The notes beneath the pieces are model-generated. The model saw only the letters and a list, made by a program, of their open reading frames with translations. It made no database searches and was not told where the DNA came from. Source: Candidatus Nomurabacteria bacterium (GTDB lineage: Bacteria; Patescibacteriota; Minisyncoccia; Phycocordibacterales; SBAW01). From it: a stretch of 64,000 nt of DNA. Positions within the stretch are counted from its first letter, which is position 1, and every line of letters starts with the position of its first letter. Positions 17,977-25,410 of this stretch are shown here, piece after piece. The stretch lies in contig CALQZS010000002.1 in NCBI GenBank assembly GCA_943349945.1, positions 115,750-179,749 on the forward strand, given 5' to 3'. The position numbers and the translations under genes are program-made.

Positions 17977-18193
17977 AGATTATATTTTTTTATTGAGACT
18001 GATAAGAAGTACTTGTGGCAAACTCTGCGCTGCCCGGAGTGGGCGACTTTTTTGTGGGCGCAACCAAAAGCACCACGAGCGCCAACACCTCTATAACTCC
18101 GATAATCCCCAAAACGATGTATGCGCGCCTGGTTCCTGGTTGCATACCCCTAGTCTACCACTCCACCTGCCGCAGGTGTGCTAGTGTAGCCAT

Positions 18194-18415
18194 ATGTATA
18201 TAAAAGTCCGAGTCCAAACAGGGGCTAAAAAGGAGGTCTGCACCCCGCTTGGCGACAACACCTTTGCTATTGCGGTCAAAGAAAAGGCCAAGCAAAACTT
18301 GGCAAACAGGCGCGTGTTGGCGATTATTGCCGCAGAGTACCAAACGACGCCGCAAGCAGTGCACATAGTCAGCGGCCATCATTCGCCCAGCAAAATGCTC
18401 AAATTGCGCTCTTGA
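18194..18415 (+). CDS. DUF167 (YggU-like) small protein
   Basis: 73 aa. IKVRV…AKKE…AIAVKEKA…ANRRVLAIIA…VHIVSG…S…K matches the YggU pattern. Confidence 0.5.
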   Translation: MYIKVRVQTGAKKEVCTPLGDNTFAIAVKEKAKQNLANRRVLAIIAAEYQTTPQAVHIVSGHHSPSKMLKLRS

Positions 18416-18426
18416 GACGCCCCAGG

Positions 18427-18819
18427 TTACTCGGTGGTCTTGCCGTCAAAATGCTCCTCGTCGGCCTGTGCCTGTGCTTTGGTTTGGTGGACCACTCCGT
18501 CTTTGTGGTGCGGCGGCATGTACAGCGTATAGAGCTTCATCTCGCCTGCCCCCGTGTTAGTGAGGTTGTGCGTAACGCCCGCCGGAACCACCACCACACT
18601 TCCGTCTGTAAGGTCGTGCGACACACCGTCTAAAATTGCCACACCGCTACCCTGCTCGACACGCAAAAATTGATCGACGTCGTGCACCTCTTGGCCAATG
18701 TCCTCGTTGGGCAACAGCGACATCAGCACCAGCTGACTGTTTTTGTCGGTGTATAAAACTTTTCTAAAATTAGCGTTCTCGAGCGCGAGCTTTTCTATGT
18801 TTGCTATGTATCCTTGCAT
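18427..18819 (-). CDS. Cupin-domain protein
   Basis: 130 aa. Two His-containing cupin motifs (GQEVH…; VVVPAGVTHN). Confidence 0.7.
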   Translation of the reverse strand: MQGYIANIEKLALENANFRKVLYTDKNSQLVLMSLLPNEDIGQEVHDVDQFLRVEQGSGVAILDGVSHDLTDGSVVVVPAGVTHNLTNTGAGEMKLYTLYMPPHHKDGVVHQTKAQAQADEEHFDGKTTE

Positions 18820-18856
18820 ACCGTTAGGGTAGCACGGGTTTAGTGCAATAAAAAAA

Positions 18857-18879
18857 CGACCGCTTCAGTGAAGCGGTCG
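18857..18879 (-). terminator. Terminator hairpin for the minus-strand gene above
   Basis: cgaccgcttcagtgaagcggtcg preceded by A7 on plus, which is T7 on minus. Confidence 0.45.
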
Positions 18880-18892
18880 CGTGGGTAGGTCG

Positions 18893-19264
18893 TTAGGCAT
18901 CCATCCCTGTCGCCCAATACCCGTGTCGGACGTCGAATGTACGCACCACGCATTGGATATACGCATCAGGCGTCATCTCGTGCGTAACCTGGAAGAAGGC
19001 GCTTGCCACCTCGTCCATATTGTCCGGCCCAAGCATGAAGTGGGCAGGCACATCCGCCTCGATGAGGATATTCTTCCCTGCCCCATAGGCAATTATGTCC
19101 AAGGGGAAAAGGATGATGATGTCGTTCTCGTCCCTGACGCGAAGCGCGGTGACAGAGCATGCCGCACGCAGCAGTTGGTTGAAGTAGGACTGATAGTCTA
19201 CTTCTACCCACGGGTTTGGTAGCCAATACGCCCTGACGATGGGCTTTGCGGGTCTCTCTAACAT
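18893..19264 (-). CDS. Hypothetical protein (island gene)
   Basis: Start at MLERPAKP… with an AAGGAGA RBS 7 nt upstream. The shared promoter-like motif lies upstream. Confidence 0.45.
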   Translation of the reverse strand: MLERPAKPIVRAYWLPNPWVEVDYQSYFNQLLRAACSVTALRVRDENDIIILFPLDIIAYGAGKNILIEADVPAHFMLGPDNMDEVASAFFQVTHEMTPDAYIQCVVRTFDVRHGYWATGMDA

Positions 19265-19300
19265 TTGTAGTCTCCTTTTTGTTGTGTCTAATATGACTAT

Positions 19301-19325
19301 AACACAAAATATAAAAATTACTAGC
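19301..19325 (-). promoter_or_regulatory. Copy A of the repeated promoter-like motif (minus-strand gctagtaatttttatattttgtg)
   Basis: 23/24 nt identical to the copy at 20032-20054. Each copy lies 35-45 nt upstream of an RBS and start codon. Confidence 0.35.
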
Positions 19326-19374
19326 TCTTGCACCTTAAGTCCGAATTGCCCGCAAATGGGTGTGTATAAAAAAA

Positions 19375-19400
19375 CCGCCCTCAGAAAACTCTGGGGGCGG
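19375..19400 (-). terminator. Terminator (ccgccc…ggggcgg hairpin) with shared gtttgtataaaaaa flank
   Basis: Hairpin plus T-tract on minus. The flank recurs at 22367 and 23478. Confidence 0.45.
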
Positions 19401-19406
19401 TAGTGC

Positions 19407-19793
19407 TTAATGCAGCGTCTGTGCAGAAACAGTGATAGTCTGCGGGCCGTTTTTTGACACAGGCTGCAGCGTCTGCATAAACATGCTTTGAAAAAAGTGC
19501 GACAGGACGGTGCACGCGCTCAGAGCCTTTGCGGTGTCCACCAAGTTTACCTTTTTCTTTTGCGCCAAGAGGTCGAGCGTCGGCGTTGGTGCAGTTGCAC
19601 CAGCTTCTGTTGCAAACGCATCAAACCGAGCAAGGAAGGGCCGAAGCTGTTGCAGCCTTTCCAGTGCTTTGATCATCAAGTCTGGAGGCGCTACACCTTG
19701 CACTACCAGACTCATGCACAAAAACAAATGACTCACCTCGAGCAAGTGTCTTTGCTCGCTGACATGGATGGTAGCCTGTGCTGGCTTGTTCAT
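19407..19793 (-). CDS. Hypothetical protein (island gene)
   Basis: Start at MNKPAQAT… with a GGAG RBS. Immediately downstream of a 62-aa ORF. Confidence 0.4.
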   Translation of the reverse strand: MNKPAQATIHVSEQRHLLEVSHLFLCMSLVVQGVAPPDLMIKALERLQQLRPFLARFDAFATEAGATAPTPTLDLLAQKKKVNLVDTAKALSACTVLSHFFQSMFMQTLQPVSKNGPQTITVSAQTLH

Positions 19794-19809
19794 TACAAAC
19801 TCCGATCCG

Positions 19810-19998
19810 CTATTTCCTTTGTATTGGGTCGGTGGCTTTTTGGCCGCTGCCGGTGCAGTTTTGCGCCGGCACGCGCACGCTGTAGTGCGCCTGCAGCCTT
19901 GCCTCACCATCTCTCGTAACTTTGCAGACCACCTTCAAGGCACCACAAATGTGGCAAGTTGCCCTGACTGTGCCGCCATCAACAACAAAAGTATTCAT
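19810..19998 (-). CDS. Small Cys-containing hypothetical protein (62 aa)
   Basis: AGGAGT RBS 8 nt upstream. CHIC…C…C pattern. Preceded by promoter-like motif copy B. Confidence 0.35.
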   Translation of the reverse strand: MNTFVVDGGTVRATCHICGALKVVCKVTRDGEARLQAHYSVRVPAQNCTGSGQKATDPIQRK

Positions 19999-20031
19999 GT
20001 ACTTACTCCTATATGTCTGTGGAAACGATAC

Positions 20032-20054
20032 CACAAAATATAAAAATTACTAGC
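20032..20054 (-). promoter_or_regulatory. Copy B of the repeated promoter-like motif
   Basis: Same 23-mer as copy A, with a TATATT -10-like hexamer. Confidence 0.35.
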
Positions 20055-20125
20055 GCTGCTAGGGTTGAAATTTGTACAAAAGAAAGAGTCGCAGCGAAGC
20101 TGCGACTCAGTGTGGAAAGGCCGGG

Positions 20126-20305
20126 TTAGTTGAGCACCCTGTCTCCCCTGTTAGTGGTGTCGGACAGACAGTTTGCGGCATTGCGTGCCGCACGAGCAGC
20201 ATACTCTTGCGCCGCCCTCCTTTCGATTGCGGCAAGTTCGGCGCGCGTTTCGGCACGCCACACCAAACGGATGCGCCGTTGGTAAAAGAAGCTTCCCGTA
20301 TCCAT
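20126..20305 (-). CDS. Small Ala/Arg-rich hypothetical protein (~59 aa)
   Basis: Terminator hairpin 20086-20108 just downstream. Weakly supported. Confidence 0.3.
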   Translation of the reverse strand: MDTGSFFYQRRIRLVWRAETRAELAAIERRAAQEYAARAARNAANCLSDTTNRGDRVLN

Positions 20306-20483
20306 ACCACTTCTCCTGTAGGTTGGCGTCTTTGCATAGAAACACAAAGACCTAGCTAAAATTAAAATACCATTACCGCCCAGGTTTGTAAAGAATTTAT
20401 GCACAGGTCTGACCTGCGCAACCAAAGTGCATATGTTGCTATAAAAAAAGGCCGGTCTTCGTACAGAAGACCGGCCAACGCCC

Positions 20484-20915
20484 CTAGTGACGTGTCGGTG
20501 TGTGGCGCAGATCGTAAAACCGATACAGCTCCGGCACAGGAAACGGCTCCGCCGAATCGAGCCACTTTTCTCCCTCGCCCTCCATCATCTCGCGAAGCAC
20601 TTCCGCACCTCGCTCCAAGTCGCTCGTACTGAGCAGGAAGTTGACCTTGCAGCCGCCTCCCTCCCAGTCAAACTGAGAATGAAAGAGGACCCCAGACCGG
20701 GCGCCGACCATATGCGACGCCCAGTAAGTCTCGATGACGCCATCCAGATGACCCACCAGCGGCATACGGTCTCTGCTCTTGAGGTGCAGCTCGCACGCCG
20801 CCTTCTTGAGCGCGGCACACACCGCATCCGGCAGCATCCCCGGACCATCCGAAACAAGCAGACACGACCACGAATCATGGAGCACAGCGGCTCTCCCCTT
20901 GTCCAAACTCGGCAT
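20484..20915 (-). CDS. Hypothetical protein (island gene)
   Basis: 143-aa ORF. Terminator hairpin 20450-20476 downstream. Confidence 0.4.
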   Translation of the reverse strand: MPSLDKGRAAVLHDSWSCLLVSDGPGMLPDAVCAALKKAACELHLKSRDRMPLVGHLDGVIETYWASHMVGARSGVLFHSQFDWEGGGCKVNFLLSTSDLERGAEVLREMMEGEGEKWLDSAEPFPVPELYRFYDLRHTPTRH

Positions 20916-21036
20916 ATAGTAACACGTTTTTAAAATTTGTCTGCTCTAGCCTTCGAGCTCTATAAACGAAGGGACTCTGCGTATAGGGAATAAAAAAAAT
21001 ACCCCAGACTTTGCTGTCTGGGGTGGGTGCGAGAGC

Positions 21037-21321
21037 CTACTGATTGTATATTGTCTCAAGCACCGCAAAGGGGTTTAGGCCTTCGAACTGCCAATTCAAG
21101 ATGTCTTCGATGAGCATGGCCCCTGTATCTGTTTCTGCCCACCAACACATGAATTGATGTAGCGTCATGTGCATGTACGGCGCAAAGGCCTCCTGCACCG
21201 ACTCGTGGTCGTCGGCAACTGGCGGATAGAGCTTGAGCACGTCGTGCACGGACGTATCAAGAAGTGCAATAACTTCAGCAAGCCGGTGGGCGACCAGGGA
21301 AACAGTGAGAGCGTTTGGCAT
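21037..21321 (-). CDS. Hypothetical protein (island gene, ~94 aa)
   Basis: Start at MPNALTV…. Terminator hairpin 21002-21023 downstream. Confidence 0.4.
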   Translation of the reverse strand: MPNALTVSLVAHRLAEVIALLDTSVHDVLKLYPPVADDHESVQEAFAPYMHMTLHQFMCWWAETDTGAMLIEDILNWQFEGLNPFAVLETIYNQ

Positions 21322-21851
21322 TGGGGCATCCTTACAAGGTCTGTAGCGAGTTTGAAAATAACACTTTTTATAAAGAGTACAAGTCCTTGGAAGTTGTAAC
21401 ATTCCCGTTTCTACTATAGCTTGGAGGAGGAGCAAAGCGAGCCAAAAGCTCAGGTCCCAAAATCATGGCTCAGCGTGAGGACTTAAGCCATGTGCCGAAG
21501 CTTTGGACTTTTGTGCGCAAGCACAAACAGTGATATGTTCCTGATGGAGGTACTTATGTGTAGTGTTAGCTCTTTGGGGCTATAAGCTGCATATTTGCCT
21601 TGAGGCGGGGTTACAACCCCATAATGTCTCCGGACCAAAACGCACCTCAAGCGAGGCCTTTGGTATCGTGTTGAAACGCCTAGTTGGTGAGGTAACGGCT
21701 TACCAAGGGGATGTGCCAACTTCTTGCGATATGCTTTGTGCAACGAAGAAGCCACTCATGGGGCCAGTACGTCATCGAACGTACGGCCCCATTTGCTTTT
21801 CTTTAAAATAAAAACCTGCTGCAGAGTTACCTCGCAGCAGGTTTTGGTGTG

Positions 21852-22316
21852 TTAGGCACGCATCAATCCTCGAAAGCGACCGCCAATACGCCTGGCTTCA
21901 ACGTAACTTTCGCCCGCGAAACGTACCACACGAATAGTCTCTCCGAAGGAGAAGCGCATTGCGTGCATCCACGCACCGACCGTAGCATCCTGAAGAGTGA
22001 TACCTTCTCTCCTCAACGCATCAGCAGTTGGTGCGAGCGGCGTGTTTGCCAGCCATTCGCGCCTAAACGCATCAGCCCCCATGCGCCGGACATTGTTCAT
22101 TGTGGGCAACATTCGTACGCCTAGGTTTTGATACGCGGTCGCGCATATGGCCAACTTTTCGTTGCGGGCCAGACGACTTGGATTTTGTGTGCGAGTCGCA
22201 GGTTGCCTAAAAGGTCCTCTGACGGCCCTTCCAAGTACCTTTTGGACAGGCCTACTGCTTTTATGCTTCACGGCTTTTCTCCCACAAAATGGAGCCTTCT
22301 GATGCCAGGATAGCAT
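21852..22316 (-). CDS. Hypothetical protein (island gene; the true start may be an internal Met)
   Basis: ORF followed by terminator 21815-21841. Confidence 0.35.
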   Translation of the reverse strand: MLSWHQKAPFCGRKAVKHKSSRPVQKVLGRAVRGPFRQPATRTQNPSRLARNEKLAICATAYQNLGVRMLPTMNNVRRMGADAFRREWLANTPLAPTADALRREGITLQDATVGAWMHAMRFSFGETIRVVRFAGESYVEARRIGGRFRGLMRA

Positions 22317-22426
22317 AATTCACTACTTTTTCATGAACATATTTAGAGTAAGGAGATGCAGAGCTTGGGGTTTGTATAAAAAAGAAAGCCGCTAGTTTCC
22401 TAGCGGCCAGTTGTAGACGTCTGACT

Positions 22427-23386
22427 TTATTTTACTTGATCCATAGCAGCCAGAGCTGCCGCCAGATCTTCTTGAGCAAGTGTAATTTCCGTTCGATAAG
22501 ACACTCGCGCAACCCAGCCCCGAATAATTGCTGGGGGCGCCGTTTCAAGAAGTTCTCGAACCTCCCTACACTCAGATCGAGCCTGGCTTATACGTCGCTC
22601 GATGGCTCGCCGTTGGCTGTGTGGGTCGGACATTCGTCCCCGAGTCGTTAGCCCCTCTTGTGTAGACAAGGCTTCGATTTCTCCACGCAAGGAACGTACA
22701 CTCACTTTCCCGTCGCGGACCCGCCGAGCAAGGGGGGCTTGTAGATCCTGCGGAAGGCGCGAAATCTCAATTGCCGCCGCAGGAGGGAGCACCTTCTTTC
22801 CCTTAGGCACTAGTTCGGGGTCGAGCATGTCCCTAACTTCGATAGTCAACCGACGAAGACCGTAGAGGTTTGTGGCATAGATTGGGTGGAAGCCAATAGA
22901 GTCAGCAATTTCTTGTATGGTCAGCTTCAACTGCTCGTGCATGTTGACGATCGAGTCGACGATCTCGAGTACTGTATGACCTTCGCGATTAAAGTTTGCA
23001 ATCGCCGACACAAGATATTGCGCCGCCTCGTCATCGATATCAACAATCATTGCTCGGTATGTAGGAATGTTGGCCAGCACTATTGCCCGCCAACGACGCT
23101 CTCCATCCACCAACTCGAAGTCGTGTCCGCCTTCTCCACCTGGTACTACGCGCAAATATCCAGGCATCAGTTGCCCTATCTGGGTAATAGATGACTGGAG
23201 CTTCTGTAGACGGTCGGGGTTGAAGAATTTGCGAGGCTGGTTCGTCATGGGACGTATCCTATGAACAGGGACAACCTCATATCGAGCCGAAGCAATTGCT
23301 ACACGGGCTTTTTCGAGCAAGGCCCGACCTTCTTCACGAGTCTGAACCCCCACAGAGGTCGGCAAGTCGCTAAGTAACTGGTCCAT
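22427..23386 (-). CDS. ParB/Srx-fold (ParB N-terminal domain) protein
   Basis: GERRWRA motif with preceding VPVHRIRP…. AAGGAGGG RBS. Terminator at 22387-22408. Confidence 0.65.
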   Translation of the reverse strand: MDQLLSDLPTSVGVQTREEGRALLEKARVAIASARYEVVPVHRIRPMTNQPRKFFNPDRLQKLQSSITQIGQLMPGYLRVVPGGEGGHDFELVDGERRWRAIVLANIPTYRAMIVDIDDEAAQYLVSAIANFNREGHTVLEIVDSIVNMHEQLKLTIQEIADSIGFHPIYATNLYGLRRLTIEVRDMLDPELVPKGKKVLPPAAAIEISRLPQDLQAPLARRVRDGKVSVRSLRGEIEALSTQEGLTTRGRMSDPHSQRRAIERRISQARSECREVRELLETAPPAIIRGWVARVSYRTEITLAQEDLAAALAAMDQVK

Positions 23387-23541
23387 AGGATCCCTCCTTT
23401 TTGTGTACTCAAGCACTCCTAACGAAAACGCTATCCGCCCCCACTGTAATAGATATGAGCCTAAAACACAAAATAAGGGTTTGTATAAAAAAGCCGCCTT
23501 GCACAAGACGGGGCGGGACGGCTAGGTGCTATGATGGGCGT

Positions 23542-24012
23542 GTGGTGAAAAAATATACCGACGAAGAGTACGCAGCCCTGCTGCCCAAGAAACAGGTTGG
23601 GACGGCTGTGTTGTTTTTTAATTCCAAAAACGAGTTGCTTGTAGTCAAACCAGATTACAGGGAAGAGTGGCTTGTGCCAGGCGGTGCCGCCGACGAAGAC
23701 GAATCACCACTCCACTGTGCCCTGCGCGAAACAGAGGAAGAAATTGGACTAAAGATGACCACACTACAACTGGTAGGAATATATTTTGCACATAAAAATG
23801 GAGTCTATACAGACTCTCTTAAATTTGTCTTTTATGGCGGAATACTAACCGAGGATCAAATTGCATCAATTAAACTAGATACAGAAGAACTGGAAGAATA
23901 TACTTTTATGCCTCTAGAAAATGCCCTACCCCTGCTGTCCCCTAGTTTGCAAAAGTGCGTACCCAAAAGTGTGGAGGCTATAAAAACTAACGCGGTGGTG
24001 TATGTGGAATAA
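23542..24012 (+). CDS. NUDIX hydrolase
   Basis: Nudix box GGAADEDESPLHCALRETEEEIGL. Probable GTG start. AT-richer than its flanks. Confidence 0.7.
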   Translation: MVKKYTDEEYAALLPKKQVGTAVLFFNSKNELLVVKPDYREEWLVPGGAADEDESPLHCALRETEEEIGLKMTTLQLVGIYFAHKNGVYTDSLKFVFYGGILTEDQIASIKLDTEELEEYTFMPLENALPLLSPSLQKCVPKSVEAIKTNAVVYVE

Positions 24013-24048
24013 AAAACGAGCCCCCATCTTGCGACAGGGGCTTAGCCT

Positions 24049-24417
24049 TTAGGGCTCGCAGACAAGGTACCCGTCGCTTATACACACCACCCAGTCCATG
24101 TCTTGGAGGCGTGTACTAACAGGTCCCATATGAGGTTGTTTGCCTTTCGACCACCCAAAGACGCTCACACAGCTTCCGTCGTAAAACGGAACAAATATGG
24201 GGTCTTTAACATTTAGCCCCAACTTAAGAGCCTCAACAACTTCTCCTGGAGAAAGTAATATACATTCCAAACGCAATCGCGCCAGAAAAGTATTCCAAGG
24301 AAGATACTGAAGCTCAAAGAATTGAGGATAAATAACTCTGGTTTTATACCCAGAGCGGAGTCGGACGGACTCAAGTATACAAGGCACGGCCTCTTCCTTT
24401 CCCCATGGATCATCCAT
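24049..24417 (-). CDS. Hypothetical protein
   Basis: 122-aa ORF with an AGGAGA RBS. Convergent with the NUDIX gene. Confidence 0.4.
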   Translation of the reverse strand: MDDPWGKEEAVPCILESVRLRSGYKTRVIYPQFFELQYLPWNTFLARLRLECILLSPGEVVEALKLGLNVKDPIFVPFYDGSCVSVFGWSKGKQPHMGPVSTRLQDMDWVVCISDGYLVCEP

Positions 24418-24689
24418 GTGGATGTCTCCTTATGTGTGTGTTCTGTAGCCATATGCATACTAACACAAGTATATGTTTTTGTAAAGTTTTTGCTCCGGCG
24501 CCAAGATAGGACTCGGCTCCGCATAAAAACTTTATCGTCATAAAGTTTTTTGCTAGCCGCGCCTCGCTCCCACGTCTGCTGACGCGGGGCCCGCTCCGGC
24601 GTTCGAGTCCTGGACGGAAGTGTCCCACACTTCCTCGCCTGGGGCTTGTAACGCAAAAATCGCCCAAAGGCGATTTGTTGCTAACCAAG

Positions 24690-24991
24690 CTCCGGCGCCA
24701 GGACTCGAACCTGGAACCAACTCCTTACACGTGAATCCCCCATTGCTGCGGGCGTGGACTATATCATCATCCCAACTTACAGGAAGTTGTCGGATGCGAG
24801 GCGCTTCGCGCTGCAAATCGCAGAGCTACTCCCTTGCGGGATAGTCTCTACACCTTCCCCAACATAACGTCGGGACTTGGCTCGGGATTGCCCCAAAGGG
24901 GTTTCCCCGAATTCACCTCGTTTTTCAATTCAGATTCCTCTGAAAGGCTGCCTTTAGACAGGGAGCTGCTCTACCATTGAGCTACACCGGA
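24690..24991 (-). tRNA. tRNA-Asn(GUU), interrupted in the anticodon loop by a 230-nt group I intron
   Basis: Exons fold as UCCGGUG-UA-GCUC-AAUGGUA-GAGC-A-GCUCC-CUGU|UAA-GGAGU-UGGUU-CCAGG-UUCGAGU-CCUGG-CGCCGGA-G. UCC acceptor start and G73 fit Asn. Confidence 0.65.
24728..24957 (-). ncRNA. Group I self-splicing intron
   Basis: P7 with R element GUAGAGACUAUC and S element GAUAUAGUCC. GCCAAGUCC P-like element. U at -1 paired to an internal guide GCAG. Terminal omega-G before UAAGGAGU. Confidence 0.65.
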
Positions 24992-25065
24992 ATATATCGA
25001 ACATTCAATATTATACATGTGTTTTTATTAATAACAAACTTAACACCTTGTGTTATACTTTTTGT

Positions 25066-25410
25066 ATGGATAAGGTTTGTAAAAAACATGGACAAACGAA
25101 ACATTTCCTGCGACCAGACGGGGCTTTCCGCTGCGGTAAGTGCGCTTCGAGTTGGGTAATACGAAACCGCCAGAAAAAGAAAATAAAACTAGTAGAGCAG
25201 TTTGGAGGAAAATGTATTGTCTGTGGTTATAAAAAATATGCCGGTGCATTAGATTTTCACCATCTAAATCCAAAGGAAAAGAGTTTTGCTCTGAGTGTCA
25301 AAGGCCTTTCCTATTCTTGGGAAAGTATTTTAGAAGAGGCAAAAAAGTGCGTGCTGGTGTGTAAAAATTGCCACACCGAAATTGAAGCTGGTATGACTGT
25401 GCTACAGTAA
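25066..25410 (+). CDS. HNH endonuclease
   Basis: CxxC…CxxC zinc knuckles, DFHHLNP…N…CKNCH HNH motif. About 40% GC. 74 nt from the tRNA 5' end. Confidence 0.75.
   Translation: MDKVCKKHGQTKHFLRPDGAFRCGKCASSWVIRNRQKKKIKLVEQFGGKCIVCGYKKYAGALDFHHLNPKEKSFALSVKGLSYSWESILEEAKKCVLVCKNCHTEIEAGMTVLQ

What the first reader, a model, noticed from the sequence alone, without database searches (positions are those of the whole stretch)
18893..24640. Cassette-like genomic island of co-oriented small hypothetical genes, each with its own terminator, ending at a tRNA
Between the cupin gene and tRNA-Asn, eight or more minus-strand ORFs of 59-154 aa are each followed by their own A-tract plus hairpin terminator. 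On plus-strand coordinates these lie at 18857, 19375, 20086, 20450, 21002, 21815 and 22387. A ParB N-terminal-domain protein (GERRWRA) and an AT-rich NUDIX gene sit with them. The segment shows local GC heterogeneity (58-60% in places, 45% in others). It abuts a tRNA gene, the classic integration target, yet I can see no integrase, relaxase or transposase. None of the small proteins shows a motif I recognise. They could be a toxin/immunity, defence or phage-remnant set.
Basis: partly seen in the sequence, partly recalled or inferred. Interest (0 to 1): 0.65.

Follow-up and report, generated by a model that had tools for sequence, protein, structure and literature searches.

The report
Variable accessory-gene patch beside tRNA-Asn
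This is a species-specific patch of small, individually switched genes next to a tRNA gene in a tiny-genome (CPR) bacterium; it marks a spot where related species swap gene content, but it belongs to a familiar kind of genome feature and is not a new system.

Summary
Between a cupin gene and tRNA-Asn lie eight co-oriented small genes (59-154 aa), a ParB-like gene and an opposite-strand NUDIX gene. The 9 kb around them holds 9 strong intrinsic terminators (plus 2 read by eye), against 6 in the other 55 kb.

Corrections: the tRNA-Asn is split by a 230-nt group I intron at position 35/36, a published Patescibacteria trait. s62 shares a terminator with s128. ORF 21483-21755 is not coding.

The window matches CPR (Paceibacteria-type) MAG GCA_943359535.1 over the region compared. 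The small ORFs are real genes: exhaustive HMMER finds homologues for all nine, and s123 has a tautomerase-superfamily fold. Homologues elsewhere occur singly in unrelated chromosomal contexts, never together.

In 12 related species the 5' side of tRNA-Asn is largely conserved, while the 6 kb on its 3' side shares essentially nothing with the window. The sister species has a viperin-NUDIX-kinase block inserted exactly at the tRNA 3' end, with a 10-12-nt duplication.

No integrase, phage, plasmid, integron or known defence signature was found. Best reading: a lineage-specific mosaic of self-contained promoter-gene-terminator units in a tRNA-Asn-flank hotspot. Most functions are unknown. It is ordinary in kind and moderately interesting for CPR biology.

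The parts
18194..18415 (+). DUF167 (PF02594-like) gene at the left edge of the block missing from the sister species. It is an ancestral resident, inverted relative to hpf compared with L006 and L011.
   Evidence: (Pfam PF02594); 89% identical to the DUF167 in L095.
18427..18819 (-). Cupin_2 gene with core-like codon usage, possibly leaderless.
   Evidence: 2e-13; score 0.186; reading.
18856..18880 (-). Intrinsic terminator of s123.
   Evidence: 11-bp stem, 7 GC, T7.
18893..19264 (-). s123: tautomerase-superfamily-fold protein without Pro-1, from a Parcubacteria-wide family.
   Evidence: pLDDT 93.6; top 50 PDB hits all TSF, TM about 0.7; 291 homologues.
19296..19328 (-). Promoter module copy 1 (contains the exact 22-mer CTAGTAATTTTTATATTTTGTG and an extended -10), upstream of s123.
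   Evidence: D1; 2 exact copies, expected 0.00.
19368..19400 (-). Intrinsic terminator of the s62-s128 unit, with the shared tail TTTTTTATACACACCC.
   Evidence: reading; D2.
19407..19793 (-). s128: unknown protein, small conserved family (8 homologues).
19810..19998 (-). s62: Cys-rich small protein, first gene of the s62-s128 unit. The pairing is not conserved elsewhere.
   Evidence: (P0267).
20025..20057 (-). Promoter module copy 2 (91% identical to copy 1), upstream of s62.
   Evidence: (D1).
20086..20108 (-). Intrinsic terminator of s59.
20126..20305 (-). s59: small protein of unknown function (one homologue); promoter-like site at 20364-20392.
   Evidence: (P0250), (weak SHOCT-like hit, E 0.067, not significant).
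20400..20420 (.). Near-palindromic hairpin (CAGGTCAGACCTG). In L006 the same hairpin directly abuts a NUDIX-3'-end relic.
20450..20476 (-). Intrinsic terminator of s133.
   Evidence: 11-bp stem, 8 GC.
20484..20885 (-). s133: alpha+beta protein of unknown fold class (about 55 homologues in the best 150), GC 0.60.
   Evidence: pLDDT 88; no significant fold match; solitary elsewhere.
20981..21026 (.). s94 terminator (21001-21024) plus a 17-nt relic of the NUDIX 3' end; 98% identical over 47 nt to L006 20292-20337.
   Evidence: (D9).
21037..21321 (-). s94: small acidic protein, one weak homologue.
   Evidence: (P0281, 1.4e-4).
21436..21804 (.). Gene-free spacer. The ORF at 21483-21755 has no coding signal.
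   Evidence: (no RNA family).
21805..21843 (-). Intrinsic terminator of s154 (10-bp stem, 10-nt loop).
   Evidence: reading.
21852..22316 (-). s154: basic N-terminus with a possible wHTH C-terminus (8 homologues).
   Evidence: (HTH hints, not significant).
22387..22408 (-). Intrinsic terminator of the ParB-like gene, with the shared tail.
22427..23386 (-). Orphan ParB-like protein (CTP-binding N-domain with GERRWRA, plus HTH) from a Patescibacteria-only clade with ANFNRE in place of ENxQRE.
23401..24012 (+). NUDIX hydrolase gene, AT-rich; an ancestral neighbour of tRNA-Asn (88% aa identity to the L006 copy).
   Evidence: (PDC-S07, 3e-5).
24019..24042 (-). Terminator of s122 (faces the NUDIX stop).
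24049..24417 (-). s122: unknown protein (one homologue at 52%); promoter-like site at 24457-24485.
   Evidence: (P0150).
24488..24689 (-). Conserved, structured tRNA 3' trailer (terminator plus a second hairpin) containing fragments of the tRNA 3' end (24492-24502 and 24602-24613). This is the right boundary of the species-specific block.
24690..24991 (-). tRNA-Asn(GUU) gene split by a 230-nt group I intron (24728-24957) at position 35/36; promoter at 25010-25037.
   Evidence: PMC13011429.
25066..25410 (+). Free-standing HNH-type gene, divergent from the intron-bearing tRNA. It lies outside the finding but travels with the tRNA.
   Evidence: sub-threshold HNH; 83% and 76% in L011 and L015; remnant in L005.

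Best explanation
The segment (about 18147-24487) is the cargo of a hypervariable chromosomal hotspot on the 3' flank of the tRNA-Asn gene of a Paceibacteria-type CPR bacterium. It is a mosaic and not one element.

A few ancestral residents (DUF167, NUDIX, and probably the tautomerase-like s123) are interspersed with lineage-specific genes: cupin, s128, s62, s59, s133, s94, s154, an orphan ParB-like protein and s122. These belong to small, patchily distributed and apparently CPR-restricted families.

Almost every gene is a self-contained expression unit with a promoter-like site (several with an extended -10), an AGGAG-type ribosome-binding site and its own rho-independent terminator. Each would therefore be transcribed on its own and insulated from the hpf-fmt operon and the tRNA (inferred from sequence, not shown).

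The patch was assembled by repeated insertion, replacement and local recombination of such units, not by one integrase-mediated event. No mobility gene remains. What most of the proteins do is unknown. By position, accessory or phage/host-interaction roles are the most likely, but this is inference.
For: LINEAGE-SPECIFIC CONTENT AT A CONSERVED SITE. murA-def-fmt-hpf is conserved in L005-L022, but none of the block's genes is found there. DNA homology with the sister species L005 stops at 18146 and resumes near 24488. tblastx of the 6 kb 3' of tRNA-Asn across 13 genomes gives 0 nt shared by the window with 11 relatives and 107 nt with L005. The 5' flanks share 2-4.5 kb among the seven relatives where the tRNA directly follows hpf/fmt.

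ACTIVE INSERTION AT THIS SITE. L005 carries a 3.66-kb block placed exactly at the tRNA 3' end, bounded by AACCAA(TT)GCTC repeats. That block encodes a pVip viperin (5e-22), a NUDIX (PDC-S07, 7e-14) and a kinase-like protein.

REAL GENES. All nine small ORFs have homologues, with good family alignments. The annotated frame scores best of six for most of them.

INDEPENDENT UNITS. Homologues sit alone in unrelated contexts and never co-occur in the 100 loci held. Terminators are enriched about ten-fold. The s133 homologue in L094 also has its own terminator.

MOSAIC WITH ANCESTRAL PARTS. NUDIX is 88% identical in L006, near the same tRNA trailer. DUF167 lies next to hpf in L006 and L011. An s123-like gene lies next to an 89%-identical DUF167 in L095.

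RECOMBINATION SCARS. NUDIX-3'-end relics and shared hairpins occur at block junctions in both the window and L006. tRNA-end fragments lie in the trailer. Island-only repeated promoter and terminator modules are present.

ATYPICAL CODON USAGE. Island genes score about -0.2 to 0.03, core genes 0.20+-0.10.
Against: No direct repeats bracket the whole block, and no empty-site sequence was recovered. The polarity (gain in this lineage versus loss in L005) is therefore unresolved for much of it.

Only about a dozen related species, all MAGs, could be compared, and no within-species presence/absence variation was seen.

Promoters and terminators are sequence predictions only.

A run of monocistronic small genes with promoter-like sites and terminators also occurs in L089 around ordinary genes. 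Part of the 'cassette' look may therefore be a general Patescibacteria habit in accessory regions, not something particular to this locus.

The function of the cargo is not established.
Confidence: 0.6

Rival explanations
1. This is a single decayed integrative element (prophage, plasmid or ICE remnant) that entered at tRNA-Asn and later lost its integrase. ParB would be its maintenance gene, and the small ORFs would be its early or moron genes.
For: The block lies on the tRNA 3' flank, and tRNA-end fragments occur nearby. The ParB-like gene hits phage ParB PHROGs. Codon usage is atypical. L005 shows a true insertion at this site.
Against: There are no integrase, replication, structural or relaxase genes. 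No relative of the ParB-like gene was found on viral contigs, there is no phage DNA match, and the only plasmid match is a generic cupin gene. No small ORF hits a PHROG. ParB-clade members sit in ordinary chromosomal contexts with no ParA, integrase or phage genes. The small-gene families occur singly in core-gene contexts. The block includes ancestral genes. No att pair brackets it.
Confidence: 0.14
2. This is a defence, anti-defence or toxin-immunity island: the small proteins, NUDIX and the ParB-like protein would form one or more undescribed phage- or host-interaction systems.
For: The same hotspot in the sister species holds a viperin-NUDIX-kinase block. The window's NUDIX weakly matches PADLOC candidate PDC-S07 (3e-5). 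One s133 homologue sits beside a type I restriction-modification system and a recombinase fragment. Variable, hotspot-located, atypical-composition genes are the usual profile of defence cargo (established knowledge).
Against: PADLOC finds nothing for the eight small ORFs scanned or the ParB-like protein. Families do not co-occur as systems. The only two-gene unit, s62-s128, is not conserved as a pair. s123 belongs to a broad Parcubacteria tautomerase-like family that looks metabolic or housekeeping. Another s133 homologue is embedded among FtsA, YbeY, S21 and an aminoacyl-tRNA synthetase.
Confidence: 0.15
3. This is an integron-like gene-cassette array: promoterless ORFs separated by attC recombination sites and captured by an integron integrase.
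For: The genes are co-oriented small ORFs of unknown function, each followed by a hairpin.
Against: No IntI or tyrosine-recombinase gene occurs in or near the array. The hairpins are 20-33 nt perfect GC stems followed by T-runs, which makes them terminators, not 57-141-nt attC sites with extrahelical bases. Most units have their own promoter-like site and ribosome-binding site.
Confidence: 0.02
4. This is ordinary core genome: fast-evolving but vertically inherited small genes, with apparent absence in relatives caused by divergence beyond detection.
For: s123 evolves much faster than its neighbour DUF167 (53% against 89% identity). All the families appear CPR-restricted.
Against: The relatives' intervals contain different, recognisable genes and not diverged versions: pVip in L005, an 813-aa protein in L009, and hpf followed directly by DUF167 and the membrane genes in L006. 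Interval length varies from 0.26 kb to more than 6 kb. Profile-level homologues are found elsewhere, but not at this locus.
Confidence: 0.04

Closest known systems
tRNA-linked genomic islands / chromosomal integration hotspots (plasticity zones)
   Same: The block lies on the 3' flank of a tRNA gene, is absent from related species and has atypical codon usage. The sister species has an insertion at the tRNA 3' end with a short duplication. Cargo at the site differs between species and includes a defence gene in L005.
   Different: There is no integrase and no full tRNA-derived direct repeats bracketing the block. The block is a mosaic that includes ancestral genes. The cargo consists of monocistronic units whose families are distributed independently. 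The host is a CPR bacterium, for which my literature search found no description of such hotspots.
Integron cassette arrays
   Same: Co-oriented small ORFs of unknown function separated by hairpin-containing junctions, plus repeated junction sequences.
   Different: There is no IntI and no attC. The hairpins are rho-independent terminators. The units carry their own promoter-like sites instead of relying on a common Pc promoter.
Defence islands (for example prokaryotic viperin pVip loci)
   Same: The equivalent site in the sister species carries pVip, NUDIX and a kinase-like gene. The window has a NUDIX gene with weak similarity to PADLOC candidate PDC-S07.
   Different: No window protein reaches a convincing match to any PADLOC model, and no multi-gene system is conserved.
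ParB/Spo0J/Noc/KorB family of CTP-dependent DNA clamps
   Same: The protein has the N-terminal ParB domain with an intact GERRWRA box and a ParB-type HTH. Its nearest solved relatives are ParB, Spo0J and Noc.
   Different: There is no adjacent ParA, no parS-like site in the window and no Pfam ParB C-terminal dimerisation domain. The conserved Glu of the ENxQRE motif is replaced by Ala or Ser across the aligned Patescibacteria clade, and the clade's chromosomal contexts are unrelated to partition.
Tautomerase superfamily (fused 4-OT, MIF, cis-CaaD, 'NonPro1' members)
   Same: s123 has the duplicated beta-alpha-beta fold (TM about 0.7 to 4lkb, 6vvm and 6vvn). Many family members start with Met-Pro, and three are annotated by JGI as 4-OT family.
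   Different: No Pfam or NCBIfam tautomerase model is matched. The window copy and its closest subfamily have an N-terminal extension in place of Pro-1. Some members are fused to RNAP alpha-CTD, GNAT or wHTH domains.
Group I introns at position 35/36 of Patescibacteria tRNA-Asn (Nakagawa et al., mSystems 2026, PMC13011429)
   Same: Same tRNA, same insertion site, and the same failure of standard tRNA finders. The intron length (230 nt) is within the reported range.
   Different: The HNH gene here lies outside the intron, divergent from the tRNA. The paper reports only intron-encoded HNH genes.

Membership tests
Integron cassette array | Integron integrase (IntI, tyrosine recombinase) adjacent to the array | tested here: not met
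   No recombinase domain in any called gene from 12 to 33 kb.
Integron cassette array | attC sites (57-141 nt imperfect palindromes with conserved cores) after each ORF | tested here: not met
   The hairpins are 20-33 nt GC stems followed by T-runs. I did not run a dedicated attC covariance model.
Integron cassette array | Promoterless cassettes expressed from a common promoter | tested here: not met
   Separate promoter-like sites and terminators for most units. These are sequence predictions only.
Classical tRNA-integrated genomic island | Location at the 3' end of a tRNA gene | tested here: met
   The tRNA-Asn 3' end is at 24690 and the block extends from its 3' side.
Classical tRNA-integrated genomic island | Integrase gene at one end | tested here: not met
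   The insert in L005 also lacks one.
Classical tRNA-integrated genomic island | Flanking direct repeats derived from the tRNA 3' end | tested here: inconclusive
   Only 11-12-nt fragments within 200 bp of the tRNA and none at the distal end. The L005 insert does have a 10-12-nt duplication.
Classical tRNA-integrated genomic island | Absence from close relatives and atypical composition | tested here: met
Prophage or phage remnant | Phage structural, replication or lysis genes, or similarity to viral sequences | tested here: not met
   Among the ORFs scanned, PHROGs match only the generic ParB. No relative of the ParB-like gene on viral contigs, no phage DNA match and no BFVD fold match for s133.
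Known anti-phage defence systems (PADLOC 2.0) | Match of component proteins to system models | tested here: not met
   Only NUDIX against candidate PDC-S07 at 3e-5.
ParABS partition system | ParB N-terminal CTP-binding domain and HTH | tested here: met
   Pfam ParB_N 4e-14, HTH_ParB 3.7e-4, TIGR00180 1.7e-22; PDB ParB, Spo0J and Noc.
ParABS partition system | Adjacent ParA ATPase | tested here: not met
   None at this locus or next to four homologues.
ParABS partition system | parS centromere sites | tested here: not met
   No canonical parS-like site within 3 mismatches above chance in the window. A non-canonical site cannot be excluded.
ParABS partition system | Conserved ENxQRE motif and C-terminal dimerisation domain | tested here: not met
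   The clade has [IV][AS]NFNRE (only a few members carry another residue at that position; none has Glu). PF23552 is absent from the clade but present in canonical hits.
Tautomerase superfamily (s123) | Duplicated beta-alpha-beta fold | tested here: met
   AF2 pLDDT 93.6. All 50 top Foldseek PDB hits are TSF members.
Tautomerase superfamily (s123) | Catalytic N-terminal Pro-1 | tested here: not met
   The window copy starts MLERPAKPIV. Many homologues do start MP[IV][IL]KVW.
Tautomerase superfamily (s123) | Sequence match to curated family models | tested here: not met
   No Pfam or NCBIfam hit. The profile against PDB gives 4-OT only at E 0.12.
Group I intron in tRNA-Asn at 35/36 (Patescibacteria) | Group I ribozyme structure | tested here: met
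   RF00028, 67.2 bits against a gathering score of 50.
Group I intron in tRNA-Asn at 35/36 (Patescibacteria) | Exons join to a canonical tRNA-Asn(GUU) with the intron between anticodon positions 35 and 36 | tested here: met
   (ARAGORN on the spliced sequence). (identical D-arm, anticodon arm and T-arm to the intron-less genes of relatives; the same junctions in 5 relatives).
Group I intron in tRNA-Asn at 35/36 (Patescibacteria) | Self-splicing activity | not testable with these tools
   Shown in vitro for related introns in PMC13011429.

The most novel reading that the evidence does not exclude
The array could represent an integrase-independent gene-cassette mechanism of CPR bacteria. In this reading, self-contained promoter-ORF-terminator units are captured and exchanged at the tRNA-Asn flank and at NUDIX-3'-end junctions through shared junction modules: the T-run-ATACAMACCC terminator tail, the 22-nt promoter block and the small hairpins. 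The cargo would be undiscovered phage-defence or host-interaction proteins, as the viperin block at the same site in the sister species hints. The Glu-less ParB-like CTP-switch protein might act on these junctions.
Probability: 0.07. Interest if true: 0.75.

Novelty: new member of a known kind. Interest (0 to 1): 0.33.

Why it matters
CPR/Patescibacteria genomes are small and streamlined, and little is documented about where and how they take up accessory genes. This locus gives a concrete, comparable example. The 3' flank of tRNA-Asn is a replacement hotspot across a group of Paceibacteria-type species. In one species it holds a known defence gene (viperin). In this species it holds a set of CPR-restricted genes of unknown function, each arranged as its own transcription unit.

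It also flags three protein families that could be studied directly:
- a Patescibacteria-only ParB-like clade that lacks the conserved Glu of the ENxQRE motif;
- a Parcubacteria-wide tautomerase-fold family without a Pfam model;
- the s133 family, which has a confident predicted structure but no fold match.

None of this overturns current understanding. Its value is as a catalogued hotspot and a source of candidate accessory functions.

Tried and rejected
1. Word-index homology search with the nine small ORFs concatenated. It returned nothing, not even self-hits, so I treat it as uninformative. The exhaustive HMMER search with the same query worked.

2. Family alignments A1 and A2 as queries for viral contigs.

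4. The 16-nt direct repeat TGTAGCCATATGYATA at 18185 and 24444 as an att pair. It is non-random but absent from the 'empty' site in L005. It coincides with the promoter/TSS regions of m51 and s122, so I read it as a reused promoter block.

5. s62-s128 as a toxin-antitoxin pair. The pairing is not conserved.

6. Contig ends at 21931, 20085 and 25032 in other assemblies as strain-variation breakpoints. The two halves belong to the same MAG and are identical to the window, so these are assembly breaks.

7. ORF 21483-21755 as a gene. It has no coding signal or homologue.

8. parS search: nothing above chance.

9. A clean single-gene indel for s133 relative to L006. The shared hairpin and relic are real, but the pairwise alignment is too poor to prove it.

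10. A sensitive Rfam scan of the island found only the intron.

11. Profile searches of the s128, s154, s169 and s133 families against PDB sequences found nothing significant.

Full report
WHAT IS THERE. Over the 21 kb compared (12427-33386) the window is 100% identical to contig CALRHU010000001.1 of MAG GCA_943359535.1. Related loci are named Candidatus Nomurabacteria, Adlerbacteria or Paceibacterota, so this is a Parcubacteria-type CPR bacterium. From left to right on the plus strand the region reads as follows.
- fmt(+), hpf(-) and a 51-aa membrane gene(-).
- DUF167(+) 18194-18415 and cupin(-) 18427-18819.
- Seven small minus-strand genes: s123, s128, s62, s59, s133, s94 and s154.
- A ParB-like gene(-) 22427-23386, NUDIX(+) 23401-24012 and s122(-) 24049-24417.
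- A conserved trailer of about 200 nt, then tRNA-Asn(-) 24690-24991 containing a group I intron.
- An HNH-type gene(+) 25066-25410, s169(+) and membrane genes.

CHECK OF THE OBSERVATION.
- The region 17.5-26.5 kb has 32 terminator-like sites against 10.3+-3.6 expected. The other three parts of the window are near expectation.
- Strong hairpins number 9 (11 with the two read by eye) in these 9 kb and 6 in the remaining 55 kb.
- Most genes have an AGGAG-type ribosome-binding site at the right spacing, and several have extended -10 promoter-like sites.
- s62 and s128 are separated by 16 nt and share one terminator.
- The ParB-like protein (GERRWRA), the AT-rich NUDIX, the local GC swings (0.40-0.62 in 300-nt windows) and the lack of any integrase, relaxase or transposase are all confirmed.

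THE tRNA. ARAGORN reports no tRNA in the window. The reason is a 230-nt group I intron (Rfam RF00028, 67 bits).
- Joining exons 24991-24958 and 24727-24690 gives a 73-nt tRNA-Asn(GUU) that ARAGORN accepts.
- Its D-arm, anticodon arm and T-arm are identical to the intron-less tRNA-Asn genes of L007, L008 and L010. Five intron-bearing relatives share the same junctions...CCCTGT|TAAGGAGT....
- The U before the 5' splice site can form a G-U pair with GGCAG in the intron, and the intron ends in G (reading). This favours the Asn frame over ARAGORN's alternative Thr frame.
- The insertion is therefore at position 35/36. That is exactly the situation described for Patescibacteria tRNA-Asn by Nakagawa et al. 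(PMC13011429), so it is already known.

ARE THE SMALL ORFS GENES? Pfam, PHROGs, PADLOC and NCBIfam give nothing for any small ORF they were run on. Each sits in a 90%-identity cluster of 1-4 sequences seen on 6-9 contigs of the same population. An exhaustive phmmer search of 1.84 billion representatives with the nine ORFs concatenated found 177 hits at E<=1e-3.
- s123: about 60 homologues (best 53% identity, 8e-34).
- s133: about 55 homologues (best 55%, 2e-36).
- s128, s154 and s169: eight each.
- s122, s62, s59 and s94: one each.

The family alignments have invariant columns. In a 3-periodic Markov model trained on 31 long genes of the window, the annotated frame is the best of six for s123, s128, s59, s133, s94, s122, s169, ParB and NUDIX. 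Their scores (-0.11 to 0.06) lie between core genes (0.20+-0.10) and shadow ORFs (-0.23+-0.13). The ORF at 21483-21755 scores as non-coding. The N-terminal third of s154 scores poorly, but it aligns with homologues, so the full-length call stands.

WHAT THE PROTEINS ARE.
- s123: with the family alignment AlphaFold2 gives pLDDT 93.6 and two beta-alpha-beta units. All 50 best Foldseek PDB matches are tautomerase-superfamily proteins such as fused 4-OT, MIF, cis-CaaD and CHMI, with TM up to 0.72. A profile search returns 291 proteins. Every source name that gives a taxon is CPR, and three carry the JGI label '4-oxalocrotonate tautomerase family'. Many members begin Met-Pro, but the window copy and its nearest subfamily have an N-terminal extension. 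Some members are fused to RNAP alpha-CTD.
- s133: the model is confident (pLDDT 88) but has no significant match in PDB or BFVD.
- s128, s154 and s169: the profiles match no solved structure. HTH hints for s154 are sub-threshold.
- ParB-like protein: it aligns to the CTP-binding N-domain and HTH of ParB, Spo0J and Noc (TIGR00180 at 1.7e-22). It belongs to a clade of about 65 proteins at 35-53% identity for which every named source is Patescibacteria. In that clade the canonical [IV]EN[ILV]QRE motif is replaced by [IV][AS]NFNRE while GERR is kept. From my own knowledge, that Glu is needed for CTP hydrolysis in canonical ParB, so the clade may bind CTP without normal turnover. This is inference.
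- Four clade members examined lie in ordinary chromosomal contexts, with no ParA, integrase or phage genes nearby. No parS-like site is present in the window.

COMPARISON WITH RELATIVES. The murA-def-fmt-hpf block is conserved in L005-L022, but none of the block's genes is found at this locus in those relatives.
- An uninterrupted tRNA-Asn lies directly after fmt/hpf in L007, L008, L020 and L022. Intron-bearing copies occur in L005, L011, L015, L018 and L021.
- DNA comparison with the sister species L005 (Fmt 81% identical) shows homology ending at window 18146 and resuming near 24488. L005 has only about 260 nt where the window has 6.3 kb.
- Conversely, L005 has its own 3.66-kb block placed exactly between the tRNA 3' end and the conserved trailer, and AACCAA(TT)GCTC is present at both junctions. 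That block encodes a radical-SAM viperin (PADLOC pVip, 5e-22), a NUDIX (PDC-S07, 7e-14) and a guanylate-kinase-like protein, but no integrase.
- tblastx of the 6 kb on the 3' side of tRNA-Asn in 13 genomes shows the window sharing nothing with 11 relatives and 107 nt with L005. Most other pairs also share nothing, apart from three clusters sharing 0.6-1.6 kb. The 5' flanks share 2-4.5 kb among the seven genomes where the tRNA follows hpf/fmt.
- The site is therefore a replacement hotspot.

A MOSAIC, NOT ONE ELEMENT.
- NUDIX is 88% identical (protein) to a gene in L006 that lies about 2 kb from the same tRNA trailer.
- DUF167 is next to hpf in L006 and L011.
- The best s123 homologue (53%) lies next to a DUF167 that is 89% identical to the window's.
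- Elsewhere the small-gene families occur one at a time. An s133-like gene sits alone, with its own terminator, between S21 and an aminoacyl-tRNA synthetase gene. Another sits beside a type I restriction-modification system. An s128-like gene has no s62 partner, and an s62-like gene has no s128 partner.
- No fetched locus holds two of the families.
- No phage record shares DNA with the block, and the only plasmid match is a generic cupin gene.

SCARS AND REPEATED MODULES.
- Short copies of the tRNA 3' end lie within 200 nt of the tRNA (24492-24502 direct, 24602-24613 inverted). None lies at the far end of the block.
- L006 has two extra relics of about 60 nt of the NUDIX 3' end. Each is preceded by the hairpin CAGGTCAGACCTG or a close variant of it. 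One is followed by a terminator 98% identical over 47 nt to the window's s94 terminator. The window keeps the last 17 nt of the relic at 20981-20997 and the hairpin at 20404-20416.
- Three regulatory modules recur only inside the island in this 64-kb window and are absent from all other species' loci. They are an exact 22-mer promoter block before s123 and s62, the terminator tail TTTTTTATACAMACCC at three sites, and TATTTTGTGKTWT at three sites.
- These features fit repeated local recombination and insertion. They do not identify a mechanism.

VERDICT. The phage-remnant and integron-like readings fail their tests. A defence role is unproven, although the viperin block at the same site in the sister species makes it reasonable to test. 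I rate this a new member of a known kind, a tRNA-flank hotspot or plasticity zone, here in a CPR genome and without an integrase. Interest is moderate to low.

Noticed in passing
window 24690-24991 (-); intron 24728-24957: tRNA-Asn(GUU) is interrupted by a 230-nt group I intron between anticodon positions 35 and 36, which is why ARAGORN finds no tRNA in the whole window. This matches the published Patescibacteria phenomenon (PMC13011429).
   Followed up: yes
window 25066-25410 (+); L011 12965-13309; L015 11365-11706; remnant at L005 6507-6654: A 114-aa HNH-type gene (CxxC...HH...N...CxxCH; Pfam sub-threshold) lies just outside and divergent from the intron-bearing tRNA-Asn. It is 83% and 76% identical in L011 and L015, more conserved than Fmt (67% and 64%), is reduced to a 3' remnant in L005, and is absent next to intron-less tRNA-Asn genes. 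It may be a free-standing homing endonuclease. The published survey reports only intron-encoded HNH genes.
   Followed up: partly
L005 2498-6155: The sister species has a 3.66-kb insert exactly at the tRNA-Asn 3' end, flanked by an imperfect 10-12-nt duplication, AACCAA(TT)GCTC. It encodes a prokaryotic viperin (pVip, 5e-22), a NUDIX (PDC-S07, 7e-14), a guanylate-kinase-like protein and two unknowns, with no integrase.
   Followed up: yes
window 22427-23386 (-) and proteins P0001-P0065: The ParB-like protein belongs to a clade for which every named source is Patescibacteria. Across the aligned clade members the conserved Glu of the ENxQRE motif is replaced by Ala or Ser ([IV][AS]NFNRE) while GERRWRA is kept. 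There is no ParA neighbour and no C-terminal dimerisation domain.
   Followed up: partly
window 24488-24689; L005 2313-2497; L006 about 20660-20855: The roughly 200-nt trailer beyond the tRNA 3' end is more conserved (90-96%) than neighbouring coding DNA (73-77%), even where L005 has separated it from the tRNA. It folds strongly (z = -5.3) into a terminator plus a second hairpin that keeps pairing through two compensatory changes in L006. It also contains fragments of the tRNA 3' end in both orientations.
   Followed up: partly
L006 17496-17572, 18630-18695, 20245-20337; window 20981-21026 and 23952-24042: Relics of about 60 nt of the NUDIX 3' end recur in L006. One is joined to a terminator 98% identical to the window's s94 terminator, although the two species' genes are only about 69-86% identical at the DNA level. 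The relics mark junctions between gene blocks in both species.
   Followed up: partly
window 19303-19324 and 20032-20053; 19358-19373, 22368-22383 and 23477-23492: An exact 22-nt promoter block is shared by two unrelated genes (s123 and s62), and a 16-nt terminator tail is shared by three junctions. Both are confined to the island within the 64-kb window and are absent from the other species' loci.
   Followed up: yes
alignment A2 members (for example P0322, P0353, P0357, P0368, P0386): Some members of the s123 tautomerase-fold family carry a C-terminal RNA polymerase alpha-CTD domain (PF03118). Others carry GNAT or wHTH domains, which hints at a non-enzymatic or regulatory role for the fold in Parcubacteria.
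   Followed up: no
L089 2551-10191: In another Patescibacteria genome a ParB-clade gene (49% identical) is followed by a run of co-oriented small genes, most with a consensus TTGACA-17-TATAAT promoter or an intrinsic terminator of their own. None is homologous to the window's small genes.
   Followed up: partly
window 18194-18415 (+) compared with L006 11223-11483 and L011 12660-12923: DUF167 is co-directional with and adjacent to hpf in L006 and L011 but inverted in the window. The tRNA-Asn and HNH pair is likewise inverted relative to L011 and L015, which indicates at least one inversion in this neighbourhood.
   Followed up: partly
window 21436-21804: A gene-free spacer of about 370 nt lies between the s154 terminator and the s94 promoter. 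It contains a 31-nt hairpin (21757-21787) and matches no RNA family. It could be a decayed gene or an unannotated small RNA.
   Followed up: partly
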